From Escherichia coli (GTDB lineage: Bacteria; Pseudomonadota; Gammaproteobacteria; Enterobacterales; Enterobacteriaceae), in assembly GCF_002854065.1 (NCBI RefSeq), contig NZ_CP024147.1: a DNA stretch of 64,000 nt. The stretch is one strand, 5' to 3'. Made by a program: the position numbers. Shown piece after piece: positions 60,001-63,000 of the stretch. Every line of letters starts with the position of its first letter. Within the stretch, counting starts at the first letter, position 1.

Positions 60001-63000
60001 TACCGTAAACGTTCGGGAAGCGAATTTCCGGTGCCGCAGAAGCGAGGTACACTTTCTTCGCTCCGGCTTCGCGTGCCATCTCGATAATCTGCTCAGAAGT
60101 GGTGCCACGGACGATGGAGTCGTCGACCAGCAGGACGTTTTTATCGCGGAACTCGGCGCGGTTGGCATTCAGTTTACGGCGCACGGACTTACGACGCAGC
60201 TGCTGGCCCGGCATGATGAAGGTGCGGCCAACATAGCGGTTTTTAACGAAGCCCTGGCGGTACGGTTTGCCCAGAATACGCGCAATTTCCAGCGCGATAT
60301 CACACGAGGTTTCCGGAATCGGGATCACTACGTCGATATCCAGATCTTCCCATTCGCGGGCAATTTTCTCGCCCAGTTTCGTGCCCATATTCACACGCGC
60401 GCTGTAAACGGAAATTTTGTCGATGAACGAGTCCGGGCGAGCAAAGTATACATACTCAAACAGGCACGGATTGCTGACCGGATTGTCAGCACATTGACGG
60501 GTAAACAACTGCCCTTCTTCAGTGATGTAAATCGCTTCGCCCGGCGCGACGTCACGCAGGAAATCAAAGCCCAGCGTATCGAGCGCTACGCTTTCGGAAG
60601 CGACCATATATTCTGTGCGGTTCTCGTCAATATCACGTTTTCCCAGTACCAGCGGACGAATACCGTTTGGATCGCGGAAAGCAACCATACCGTGGCCGAT
60701 AATCATCGCCACACAGGCATACGCGCCGCGGATTAAGCGGTTTGTAGCAGCGATGGCGGCGAAAATGTTGTCGGCTTCCAGCGGGTAGTGGCGGAAGTTG
60801 TCCAGCTCGCTGGCGAAGATATTAAGCAGAATTTCCGAGTCGGAAGTGGTGTTGATGTGGCGGCGTTTTTCTTCAAACAGTTTTTTACGCAACTCGTGAG
60901 CGTTGGTCAGATTGCCGTTGTGGGCAAGCGTAATGCCATACGGGGAGTTAACGTAAAACGGCTGCGCTTCAGAGGCGCTGGAGCTGCCAGCCGTGGGGTA
61001 ACGCACATGACCAATGCCCATATTGCCCTGCAAACGCTGCATATGGCGAGCTTCAAATACATCGCTCACCAGCCCGTTCGCTTTACGCAAACGGAAGCAG
61101 TTATTGGCATCTATGGTGATGATGCCGGCGGCATCCTGACCGCGATGCTGAAGCACCGTTAAGGCATCATAAATCGACTGGTTAACCGGCATAACACCGG
61201 CGATACCGACAATACCGCACATACGTCTTTTTCCTCGTTAAGCCACATCTCAGAGCACTTACGCTCTGGGCAAGAAACTTGACGAGCTTTGCAGATAATC
61301 AAAAAACCATCTGATGATAAAACTGAACTGCGGGATCAGCTGTGATTTGCTCCAGTCTTCGCTTTTCGACACCCCGGTAAAGGAGTCGAGAAAGAAGAGA
61401 ATGGCAGCAACAATCAACACACCGCGCAACGCACCGAAACAGACGCCCAGCACCCGATCGGTGCCTGACAACCCCGTTTTCTCCACCAGCTGGCCTATCA
61501 CGAAGTTCACGATAGCACCAACGATCAGGGTAGCGATAAACAGTACCGCGATGGCAATCCCATTTCGAACCAGTTCGTCTTCAAAGCCCGTAAACCAGAC
61601 TGACAGGTAAGTGTAGTAATGACTGGCAACAAAGAAAGCACAACCCCATGTCACCAGCGATAACGCTTCACGAACAAAGCCGCGGATCAGGCTAACCAGA
61701 GAGGAAAAAGCAATCACCGCGATTATGGCGTAATCAATCCAGACCATATGTGTCCCACGATTTTACGCCCTGTCATCCTGTTCGGGGCGCATTCTAACAG
61801 AAAAAGAAAACGTTTGCGTAGGGATTTCCTTCCCGCGCATCAATAAAAATGGCGCTGAAAAAATATTCAACGCCATCGACTTTTTATGCCTTTGCGGCAT
61901 CGGACAATGCGTGTCGGATGCGGCGTAAACGCCTTATCCGATCTACGGCTCTACCCCTGCGCAGGCCTGATAAGACGCGCCAGCGTCGCATCAGGCAACG
62001 GCTGTCGGATGCGGCGTGAACGCCTTATCCGACCTACGGCTCTACCCCTGCGTAGGCCTGATAAGACGCGCCAGCGTCGCATCAGGCAACGGCTGTCGGA
62101 TGCGGCGTAAACGCCTTATCCGACCTACGGTTCTCCCCCTGCGTAGGCCTGATAAGACGCGCCAGCGTCGCATCAGGCAACGGCTGTCGGATGCGGCGTG
62201 AATGCCTTATCCGACCTACGGTTCTACCCCTGCGTAGGCCTGATAAGACGCGCCAGCGTCGCATCAGGCAACGGCTGTCGGATGCGGCGTGAACGCCTTA
62301 TCCGACCTACGGTTCTACCCCTGCGTAGGCCTGATAAGACGCGCCAGCGTCGCATCAGGCAAGACCGTATTAATTCGGCGTATAGCCCATTACCACGCCA
62401 CTTAAGCCAGAAAGTTGCTTCAACTCACCCAGCGAACCTTTCAGCTTATCTTTCGAGGCATCCGGCCCAACCAGAATACGGGTAATTTTACCCTGCACTG
62501 GCGTGGATGGCGACGTATAAACCCGATAACCGGCACCGCGCAGCTTACCGACAATTTCATTCACTTTATCGGCATTTTTCAGCGCACCCAGTTGCACAAC
62601 ATAGGCTTTACCCGTCGGTGCAGCTTTTTCTTCCACGACCGGCTTCGGTTCTGGCTTCGGCGCAGGTGGTGCTTCAACCTTTGGTTTAGGCGGCTCCACC
62701 GGTTTCGGCTTCGGTGGGGCGACCGGTGCAGGTTCCGGTTCAAACTCGGTGTTATTGGCTGCAATAGTGGCCGGATCGAGCGACGGTGCTGCGGCATCAC
62801 CTGCCCGCACCTCTTCCGCTGCGCCTTCCGGCGGCTGCGTCGGCAACGCCTGGGTGGCGGCTGGCATCATATCAGGCTCATCGCGATCGCCCGCTTTTGG
62901 AACCAGCGGGATAGCCGCAAACTCATCCTGATAATGTTTTTTCTGCCCGTCCAGCAGCCCTGGAAGTACAATCACCCCCAGCGCCACCAGCACGATCGTG

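What the first reader, a model, noticed from the sequence alone, without database searches (positions are those of the whole stretch)
61900..62360. Five-copy tandem array of 91-bp BIME/REP units between dedD and the cvpA-purF promoter
An exactly periodic (91 bp) array of five units, each containing two GC-rich palindromes in opposite orientation (GCCTGATAAGACGCGCCAGCGTCGCATCAGGC and GTCGGATGCGGCGTRAACGCCTTATCCGAC), with a few unit-specific substitutions. It fills the gap between the dedD stop and the PurR-regulated cvpA promoter. Such arrays can bind IHF and gyrase and can insulate or stabilise upstream transcripts, and copy number commonly varies between strains. The short spurious ORFs predicted here (61886-62485) are by-products of the repeat.
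Basis: seen in the sequence. Interest (0 to 1): 0.3.

Follow-up and report, generated by a model that had tools for sequence, protein, structure and literature searches.

The report
Five-unit BIME-2 REP array after dedD
This is an ordinary, long-known type of E. coli repeat: five tandem copies of a pair of hairpin-forming REP sequences just after the dedD gene, at a site where the copy number differs between strains (0 to 7, usually 1).

Summary
Window 61912-62366 holds five in-register 91-bp units (97% matches, no indels). Each unit has one y-type and one z2-type REP palindrome, head to head. That makes it a BIME-2 element with 10 REPs. It is not the IHF-binding BIME-1 type, because the array contains no IHF consensus. 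All neighbouring genes are on the minus strand. The array starts 9 nt after the dedD stop codon. It lies upstream of a terminator-like hairpin (61848-61877) and of the PurR box of the cvpA-purF promoter (61804-61819), so it most likely sits in the folC-dedD 3'UTR. Four y-linker-z2 pairs pass the Rfam threshold for naRNA4, the family defined on K-12 REP325. Across 120 sampled rows from 5,425 E. coli genomes the locus has 0 to 7 units. About two-thirds have one unit, including K-12; 3-4 units are common in O157:H7 and in Nissle/APEC/UPEC-named strains; 5 or more are rare. An independent assembly carries the identical five-unit array, so the count is not an artefact. The most likely role is that of other 3'UTR REPs: stable RNA hairpins that protect upstream mRNA and attenuate read-through, plus gyrase sites on the DNA. 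This role is inferred, not shown. The feature is already known in kind and of low interest.

The parts
62370..63032 (-). dedD coding sequence (cell division protein DedD); stop codon TAA at 62372-62370
   Evidence: ORF ending at 62370. RefSeq annotates dedD as 663 nt in the identical strain and in K-12. The mechanical ORF list extends it to a TTG at 63050.
62361..62369 (-). 9-nt spacer between the dedD stop codon and the foot of the first z2 hairpin
   Evidence: Read from the sequence. It is within the 15-nt limit reported for REP-dependent ribosome stalling (Liang et al. 2015, as summarised in PMC12306157).
61912..62366 (.). BIME-2 array: five in-register 91-bp units. On the + strand each reads y REP, CTAC, 14-nt head-to-head linker, GTAG, z2 REP, 7-nt tail-to-tail linker
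   Evidence: TRF period 91, 5.0 copies, 97% matches; unit table.
61913..61942 (-). y REP, unit 1 (foot ends CCGAT, one substitution)
61965..61996 (-). z2 REP, unit 1 (adjacent head tetranucleotide is GCAG instead of GTAG)
62004..62033 (-). y REP, unit 2
62056..62087 (-). z2 REP, unit 2
62095..62124 (-). y REP, unit 3
62147..62178 (-). z2 REP, unit 3
62186..62215 (-). y REP, unit 4 (C-to-T marker substitution also seen in arrays of other strains)
62238..62269 (-). z2 REP, unit 4
62277..62306 (-). y REP, unit 5
62329..62360 (-). z2 REP, unit 5; first hairpin met by a transcript leaving dedD
61964..62034 (-). naRNA4-like y-linker-z2 pair (Rfam RF02564, 81.1 bits; gathering score 59.5)
62055..62125 (-). 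naRNA4-like pair (83.3 bits); folds as two hairpins, -40.2 kcal/mol, z = -5.2
62146..62216 (-). naRNA4-like pair (75.1 bits)
62237..62307 (-). naRNA4-like pair (81.1 bits)
61897..61911 (.). Degenerate partial copy of a unit end (GCATCGGACAATGCG against GCATCAGGCAACGGC, 10 of 15). It supplies the short GGCAA repeat at which the empty alleles are joined
   Evidence: Comparison of empty and occupied alleles.
61838..61877 (-). Terminator-like hairpin (12-bp stem, -18 kcal/mol) followed by TTTTTATT; candidate intrinsic terminator of the folC-dedD transcript
   Evidence: Pattern scan and fold, z = -5.7. Function is inferred; the scan found no more such sites than in shuffles.
61804..61819 (-). PurR operator of the cvpA-purF promoter (ACGCAAACGTTTTCTT)
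   Evidence: Exact single match in the window. Identification as the PurR box rests on established knowledge of the purF control region.
61791..61796 (-). Putative -10 hexamer TAGAAT of the cvpA promoter
   Evidence: Read from the sequence; inferred. The consensus scan did not report it.
61259..61747 (-). cvpA coding sequence, followed by purF (59705-61222)

Best explanation
The feature is a BIME-2 element: ten REP palindromes (five y, five z2) arranged as five tandem 91-bp y/z2 pairs. Shown here: its sequence class, its position 9 nt after the dedD stop and upstream of a terminator-like hairpin and the PurR-controlled cvpA-purF promoter, its strong hairpin potential on the transcribed strand, and its behaviour as a variable-number repeat that gains and loses whole 91-bp units in register. 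Inferred from what is published for other REP/BIME-2 loci, above all K-12 REP325: it is transcribed as the 3'UTR of folC-dedD mRNA. There the stacked hairpins (about -19 and -21 kcal/mol each) block 3'-to-5' exonucleases and so stabilise the upstream message. They also attenuate read-through, which, together with the downstream hairpin, shields the purine-regulated cvpA-purF promoter from upstream transcription. Because the first hairpin is within 15 nt of the stop codon, it may also lower DedD translation by stalling terminating ribosomes. On the DNA, the y REPs are expected to be preferred gyrase cleavage sites. Copy number changes by unequal exchange or slippage between units.
For: Array structure. 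z2 consensus exact in 4 of 5 units and y core in 5 of 5, each with 0 matches in shuffles. Opposite orientation with CTAC/GTAG heads and a 14-nt head-to-head linker fits the BIME-2 definition in PMC3333891. No IHF consensus in the array. Rfam naRNA4 hits of 75-83 bits against a gathering score of 59.5, on the same strand as dedD; the REP325 hits likewise lie on the strand of yjdM. RNA folds: z2 -21.4, y -18.8, pair -40.2 kcal/mol; whole 541-nt 3' region -276.5 kcal/mol, z = -9.75. Terminator-like hairpin at 61848-61877 and PurR box at 61804-61819. Published function of the closest relative: REP325 stabilises the upstream yjdM mRNA and acts as a partially Rho-dependent attenuator (bioRxiv 10.64898/2026.03.23.713779). 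Gyrase cleavage sites are over-represented in BIME-2, mainly in y REPs (PMC6379681). REPs within 15 nt of a stop codon stall ribosomes (Liang et al. 2015, as summarised in PMC12306157). Copy-number dynamics: inserts are multiples of 91 bp from 0 to 7 units. O157:H7 ATCC 43888 unit 1 is a chimera of units 1 and 2 of O157:H7 Z1835. A strain whose flanks are 100% identical over 496 nt has only one unit.
Against: No expression data were available, so transcription through the array, 3' ends, mRNA stabilisation, attenuation and gyrase cleavage at this locus are all untested. Harris et al. stress that REP effects depend on context and that REPs do not uniformly lengthen mRNA half-lives. The array is not C-rich/G-poor on the transcribed strand (GC skew about 0), so its composition gives no support for Rho loading inside it. 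Strains with no unit at all exist, so the element is dispensable. Stems vary less among units than loops and linkers, but not significantly (10/46 against 18/45 positions, p = 0.07).
Confidence: 0.8

Rival explanations
1. The expansion is neutral or selfish. The five units are simply a recent amplification of a resident REP pair, by unequal recombination, slippage, or the REP-associated transposase RAYT/TnpA-REP. The extra copies have no selected function. This does not exclude the best explanation for the first unit.
For: Copy number ranges from 0 to 7 among strains, and about two-thirds have one unit. Empty alleles are viable. A strain with identical flanks has one unit. Units within one strain resemble each other more than units of other lineages. 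TnpA-REP cleaves and recombines BIMEs in vitro, and BIME-2 copy number is known to vary by strain (PMC3333891).
Against: Multi-unit alleles persist across whole lineages (3-4 units in O157:H7 and in Nissle, APEC and UPEC-named strains) and share marker units, so they are not all transient. Published data show dosage-independent local effects of REP arrays on neighbouring genes.
Confidence: 0.35
2. The array is a source of naRNA4-type nucleoid-associated RNAs. Its four y-linker-z2 RNAs are processed from the dedD transcript, bind HU and help condense the chromosome by bridging cruciforms, as proposed for REP325.
For: Four full-length Rfam RF02564 matches above the gathering score on the transcribed strand. 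The two-hairpin fold matches the model. The HU/naRNA4 model comes from PMC4550694.
Against: The model also hits other BIME-2 pairs, for example L011:250-330 between phnE and phnD, so a match shows sequence class and not function. The linker here is 6 nt shorter, and scores are about 25-30 bits below those of REP325. A 2026 preprint from a group that includes the senior author of the original naRNA4 paper found no stable ternary HU-cruciform-naRNA4 complex, no nucleoid change on deleting or overexpressing REP325, and no REP-REP contacts in Hi-C. K-12 has only one unit here and no naRNA4 hit.
Confidence: 0.07
3. The copy count is an assembly artefact. The true array is shorter or longer, and five is an error of repeat assembly.
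For: Tandem repeats of 91 bp at 97% identity can be mis-assembled from short reads.
Against: CUWW06, an independent complete genome from Thailand, has the same five units with identical unit-specific substitutions in the same order. Four further genomes whose arrays were read have five-unit arrays with other substitution patterns, plus one interrupted by IS1397, and arrays of 6 and 7 units exist. The 455-bp array is short relative to long reads, and the units carry distinguishing substitutions.
Confidence: 0.03
4. It is an IHF-binding BIME-1 (RIB/RIP) element.
Against: There is no IHF consensus in the array. The second REP is z2, not z1. The head-to-head linker is short. The element is tandemly repeated, whereas BIME-1 occurs as single copies (PMC3333891).
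Confidence: 0.01

Closest known systems
The same locus in E. coli K-12 MG1655 (dedD-cvpA spacer, NC_000913.3 about 2430764-2431021)
   Same: Same flanks, same 23-nt left junction, same y and z2 REPs with the locus-specific GTCGGAT...ATCCGAC foot, and same 9-nt distance from the dedD stop.
   Different: K-12 has one 91-bp unit (2 REPs) and the window has five (10 REPs). K-12 therefore has no tail-to-tail y-linker-z2 pair and no naRNA4 hit.
REP325 / naRNA1-6 (Rfam RF02564) between yjdM and yjdN of K-12
   Same: BIME-2 plan with y and z2 REPs in alternating orientation, a similar number of tandem units, location directly after the stop codon of the upstream gene, and the same strand sense relative to that gene.
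   Different: The period is 100 bp against 91 bp. The tail-to-tail linker is 13 nt ('l') against 7 nt. The head-to-head spacer has a different sequence. The y foot is GCCGGAT against GTCGGAT, which is a paired C-G to U-A change. REP325 begins with y after the stop codon and this array begins with z2. Rfam scores are 95-111 against 72-83 bits.
BIME-2 gyrase sites (e.g. sucC-sucB, tldD-yhdP; Espeli & Boccard 1997; Sutormin et al. 2019)
   Same: Same element class. y REPs are the preferred cleavage targets (PMC6379681).
   Different: Gyrase cleavage was not measured at this locus or in this strain. Only a subset of BIME-2 elements are cleaved in vivo.
BIME-1 / RIB / RIP elements
   Same: A pair of inverted REPs in an intergenic 3' region.
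   Different: BIME-1 uses z1 + y REPs with a long L linker that carries an IHF site, and it occurs as single copies. None of that applies here.

Membership tests
BIME-2 | Contains y-type REPs | tested here: met
   The y core GGATGCGGCGTNAACGCCTTATCC is found 5 times and 0 times in shuffles. It aligns to the y half of the Rfam naRNA4 model with a compensatory foot change.
BIME-2 | Contains z2-type REPs (not z1) | tested here: met
   The z2 consensus with CTAC head is exact in 4 units and has 1 mismatch in the fifth. It aligns to the z2 half of the Rfam model.
BIME-2 | REP and inverted REP alternate, head to head across a short S linker and tail to tail across an s, l or r motif | tested here: met
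   The unit layout is y-CTAC-14 nt-GTAG-z2-7 nt. Definitions are from PMC3333891. Assigning the 7-nt linker to the 's' motif rests on my recollection of Gilson/Bachellier nomenclature and was not checked against their figures.
BIME-2 | Occurs as multiple tandem copies whose number varies between strains, with copies at one locus well conserved | tested here: met
   5.0 copies at 97% identity. 0 to 7 units across sampled genomes.
BIME-2 | Bound and cleaved by DNA gyrase | not testable with these tools
   Literature only (PMC6379681).
BIME-1 (RIB/RIP) | z1 + y REPs separated by a long L linker with an IHF site; single copy | tested here: not met
   No WATCAANNNNTTR in 61900-62370; z2 rather than z1; five tandem copies.
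naRNA4 (Rfam RF02564) | Covariance-model score at or above the curated gathering score | tested here: met
   Four minus-strand hits of 75.1-83.3 bits against 59.5. Plus-strand hits of 51.6-55.2 bits fall below it.
naRNA4 (Rfam RF02564) | Expressed as a discrete ~77-nt RNA that binds HU and affects the nucleoid | not testable with these tools
   No expression data. The function is itself disputed for the founding locus.
REP translational down-regulators (Liang, Rudd & Deutscher 2015) | REP hairpin begins within 15 nt of the stop codon of the upstream gene | tested here: met
   Stop codon at 62372-62370 and z2 stem from 62360, a 9-nt gap. The criterion is taken from PMC12306157. The original paper was not held, so I could not check whether dedD is in its list.
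Intrinsic (Rho-independent) terminator downstream of the array | G+C-containing hairpin followed by a T tract | tested here: inconclusive
   One site at 61877-61848 on the minus strand: 12 pairs, 5 of them G-C, then TTTTTATT; -18 kcal/mol, z = -5.7. The scan finds no more sites than in shuffles (1 against a mean of 2.6), and no 3'-end data exist.
Targets of the REP-specific insertion sequence IS1397 | IS1397 inserts into the loop of a palindromic unit | tested here: met
   In strain JNE25-003 an IS1397-family element sits in the loop of the third z2 REP of this same array, with a GCCA duplication. The specificity is described in PMC1525189.

The most novel reading that the evidence does not exclude
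Copy number at this one BIME-2 may act as a lineage-specific expression dial. On this reading, one unit in K-12-like strains, against 3-7 units in O157:H7 and in Nissle, APEC and UPEC-named strains and 5 here, would set different DedD levels (through mRNA stability and stop-codon-proximal stalling). It would also set different degrees of insulation of the purine-regulated cvpA-purF-ubiX operon from folC-dedD read-through. Changes would arise faster than point mutation in the flanks.
Probability: 0.12. Interest if true: 0.4.

Novelty: already known. Interest (0 to 1): 0.12.

Why it matters
It matters little beyond annotation hygiene. Three practical points follow. First, the ORFs called inside the array are spurious, and the Rfam naRNA4 hits here mark a sequence class rather than four functional sRNA genes. 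Second, the locus is a clean 91-bp variable-number repeat that differs even within O157:H7, so it could serve as a typing marker and is a place where short-read assemblies may miscount. Third, K-12 has only one unit, so K-12 experiments do not speak to the multi-unit state. If REP arrays really tune 3'UTR stability and read-through, as a recent preprint argues, natural 0-to-7-unit alleles next to an essential-pathway operon (purF) offer a ready-made allelic series to test it.

Tried and rejected
(1) I looked for a REP annotation at this locus in the K-12 RefSeq record. The feature table returned only CDS rows, so no official REP number could be quoted. (2) I tried to read Liang, Rudd & Deutscher 2015 to see whether dedD is among their REP-regulated genes. 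It is not held by DOI or PMC id, so I used the summary in PMC12306157 instead. (3) A literature search for dedD/cvpA/REP/terminator gave nothing on this spacer except a sigma-54 gSELEX peak listed for the cvpA/dedD spacer in K-12. A sigma-54 consensus search with 3 mismatches was uninformative, with 316 hits against 345 expected and a listing cut off before this region. (4) I tested whether hairpin stems are protected from variation among 38 distinct units. There is only a trend (p = 0.07) and I found no clear compensatory pairs apart from the fixed locus-wide C-G to U-A foot change. (5) I looked for a Rho-loading signature. The array has GC skew near 0, so composition gives no support either way. 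(6) An exact census of all 5,425 genomes was not possible, because the search tool lists at most 60 rows. I considered junction-specific queries but rejected them, since the tool would join non-collinear pieces and single-unit genomes would score as full coverage. Two 60-row samples spread over the ranking were used instead. (7) Protein-coding readings of the repeat ORFs were rejected: no Pfam hit, no RefSeq gene, and peptides that simply repeat with the DNA period.
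Full report
**1. What is in the sequence**

Tandem Repeats Finder reports one array at 61912-62362: period 91, 5.0 copies, 97% matches, no indels, score 846. Written in register from 61912, the five units differ from their consensus at 4, 1, 2, 1 and 3 positions. The last three differences are only the right-hand edge of the array.

Each unit carries two imperfect palindromes. The y string is exact three times and has one substitution in each of units 1 and 4. Neither REP pattern turns up in any of 100 shuffles of the window. 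The only other REP-like palindrome in the 64 kb is a lone one at 24108-24139.

**2. Context**

All genes here are on the minus strand, in this order:
- folC
- dedD, with its stop codon at 62372-62370
- the array
- cvpA (61259-61747)
- purF (59705-61222)

The window is E. coli. It is 100% identical over this region to strain 100416, and RefSeq annotates only dedD and cvpA there.

On the transcribed strand the layout after the dedD stop is as follows:
- 9 nt of spacer.
- Ten alternating hairpins, z2 first and y last.
- About 35 nt of unique sequence.
- A terminator-like hairpin at 61877-61848 followed by TTTTTATT (-18 kcal/mol, z = -5.7).
- The exact PurR operator ACGCAAACGTTTTCTT at 61804-61819.
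- A TAGAAT that I read as the -10 element.
- cvpA.

So the array does not quite fill the gap, and it most likely lies in the 3' untranslated region of folC-dedD transcripts. That last point is inference. I had no expression data.

**3. What kind of repeat it is**

Ton-Hoang et al. (PMC3333891) summarise the accepted classes. BIME-1 is z1 + y with a long L linker that often carries an IHF site, and it occurs as single copies. BIME-2 is z2 + y with a short S linker and s, l or r flanks. It occurs in tandem copies that are well conserved within a locus but variable in number between strains.

This array meets each sequence criterion of BIME-2:
- It has y and z2 REPs.
- CTAC and GTAG heads face each other across a 14-nt linker.
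- The tails are joined by 7 nt.
- There are five tandem copies.

The IHF consensus WATCAANNNNTTR occurs four times in the window and never inside the array. The remark about gyrase does apply to the class, because gyrase cleavage sites are over-represented in BIME-2, mainly in y REPs, and independently of transcription (PMC6379681).

**4. The Rfam match**

Four y-linker-z2 pairs score 75-83 bits against RF02564 (naRNA4), whose gathering score is 59.5. These hits are on the minus strand. The plus-strand hits stay below threshold.

The family was defined on K-12 REP325, between yjdM and yjdN. I fetched that locus. It is a 100-bp-period array of 5.8 copies scoring 95-111 bits, on the same strand as its upstream gene. 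The two arrays share the plan but differ in several ways:
- Period: 91 bp here against 100 bp.
- Tail-to-tail linker: 7 nt against 13 nt.
- Head-to-head spacer sequence.
- The y foot: GTCGGAT...ATCCGAC here against GCCGGAT...ATCCGGC. This is a paired change that keeps the stem. It is present in every complete unit read in every strain examined, except for one substitution each in window unit 1 and YZMc3-1 unit 2.

The model also hits an unrelated BIME-2 pair between phnE and phnD. K-12's own single-unit dedD-cvpA locus gets no hit, because a tail-to-tail pair exists only when there are at least two units. The match therefore identifies a sequence class, not four sRNA genes.

The proposed HU/naRNA4 nucleoid function (PMC4550694) has been contradicted by a 2026 preprint that includes the senior author of the original paper. 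It reports no nucleoid effect and instead shows that REP325 stabilises the upstream mRNA and attenuates transcription into the downstream gene, partly through Rho.

**5. Copy number across E. coli**

I queried 5,426 complete genomes with the two unique flanks only and read the distance between them. 5,425 genomes have the locus. In two samples of 60 rows spread evenly down the ranking, the inserts were as follows.

| Units | Rows |
|---|---|
| 0 | 2 |
| Truncated single unit | 2 |
| 1 | 78 |
| 1 plus a truncated unit | 2 |
| 2 | 1 |
| 3 | 13 |
| 4 | 14 |
| 5 (one row is the window's own strain) | 4 |
| 5, interrupted by an insertion sequence | 1 |
| 6 | 1 |
| 7 | 1 |
| Uninformative | 1 |

One strain appears in both samples. 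K-12, B and C derivatives have one unit. O157:H7 strains have 3 or 4. Nissle 1917, APEC O2:K1 and UPEC-named strains have 3 or 4, and arrays of 6 and 7 units occur.

Most rows were assigned from span length alone. Nineteen loci at this site were read as sequence and agreed with the spans, apart from a 12-bp indel inside dedD that explains three odd spans. The collection is not a random sample of the species.

**6. How the number changes**

All full-length alleles differ by exact multiples of 91 bp. The two O157:H7 genomes differ by one unit, and unit 1 of the shorter allele carries the left-hand markers of unit 1 and the right-hand marker of unit 2 of the longer allele. That is the signature of an in-register unequal exchange or slippage.

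A marker unit with a C-to-T change in the y stem recurs near the dedD-proximal end of arrays in different lineages, so the arrays are related by descent. PapRG-04-4 has flanks 100% identical to the window over 496 nt but only one unit. Copy number therefore changes faster than the flanks accumulate substitutions.

The empty alleles join the flanks at a 5-bp GGCAA shared by the degenerate partial copy left of the array and the end of the last unit. This fits deletion of the whole array by the same kind of exchange, although an ancestral empty site cannot be excluded. I did not test whether the REP-associated transposase contributes.

**7. Is five an artefact?**

CUWW06, an independently assembled complete genome, has the same five units with the same substitutions in the same order. 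D8, A30, GF3-3 and strain 135 have five units with other patterns. The count is credible.

**8. Most likely function**

The hairpins are strong on the transcribed strand:
- z2: -21.4 kcal/mol
- y: -18.8 kcal/mol
- the pair: -40.2 kcal/mol
- the whole 541-nt region: -276.5 kcal/mol against -213 for shuffles, z = -9.75

By analogy with REP325 and older REP work, I expect three RNA-level effects. The array should protect folC-dedD mRNA from 3' exonucleases. It should reduce read-through into cvpA-purF. And because its first stem starts 9 nt after the stop codon, it may reduce DedD translation by stalling terminating ribosomes (criterion from Liang et al. 2015 as summarised in PMC12306157). On the DNA it should offer up to five y-REP gyrase sites.

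None of this was measured here. Several observations argue for caution. REP effects are reported to depend on context. The array has no C-over-G bias on the transcribed strand. Strains without the element exist. Stems are only non-significantly less variable than loops and linkers. Whether the four extra units add anything beyond what one unit does is open, and a neutral expansion is a serious, non-exclusive alternative.

**9. Verdict**

Corrections are needed on IHF, on the element's exact class, and on the presence of a separate terminator-like hairpin. The feature is a textbook BIME-2 at a polymorphic locus. Its kind, its variability between strains and even its use as a target by IS1397 are already described in the literature. 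Interest is low.

Noticed in passing
L018 (E. coli JNE25-003, NZ_AP045053.1) about 3998-5436, same dedD-cvpA locus: An IS1397-family insertion sequence (about 1.43 kb) sits in the loop of the third z2 REP of a five-unit array, flanked by a 4-bp GCCA duplication (GACGC-GCCA-[IS]-GCCA-GCGTC). This matches the published REP-loop specificity of IS1397.
   Followed up: yes
window 24108-24139: A lone REP-like palindrome, GTCGGATGCACCGCGAAGGAGGCTTATCCGAC, has the same unusual GTCGGAT...ATCCGAC foot as the y REPs of the array. It lies in the 163-bp gap between two long minus-strand ORFs (22489-24018 and 24182-26023), apparently inside the nuo operon.
   Followed up: partly
window 31150-31192 (-): An Rfam match to the nuoG RNA cis-regulatory family (RF01748, 50.3 bits against a gathering score of 33). 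It is the only other Rfam hit above threshold in the window.
   Followed up: no
L005 and L006 (dedD of strains 2020N21-246 and PC-NDM34): dedD is 651 nt instead of 663 nt in some strains. The 12-bp in-frame length difference lies within the gene, probably in its Pro/Lys/Glu-rich repeat region, and it shifts flank-to-flank distances by 12 bp.
   Followed up: partly
L004 (strain E20) and L006 (PC-NDM34), dedD-cvpA spacer: Decayed alleles occur. In E20 one unit is truncated to 71 bp, with most of the y REP lost. In PC-NDM34 a single unit is reduced to 68 bp, with the head-to-head linker and both inner stem halves deleted.
   Followed up: partly
L011:250-330 (+), K-12 between phnE and phnD: A further naRNA4 (RF02564) match of 69 bits lies at an unrelated BIME. 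It shows that the Rfam family captures generic BIME-2 y/z2 pairs.
   Followed up: no
K-12 cvpA/dedD spacer (literature, PMC8743547): A genomic SELEX screen lists this spacer among in-vitro RpoN (sigma-54) holoenzyme binding peaks (31-32% intensity). My consensus search could not say whether the REPs are responsible.
   Followed up: partly
window 61838-61880, both strands: The hairpin between the array and the cvpA promoter is followed by a T-run on the minus strand (TTTTTATT). On the plus strand a T-run (CGACTTTTTATG) follows after 4 nt, so it could in principle act in both directions. No gene converges on it.
   Followed up: no
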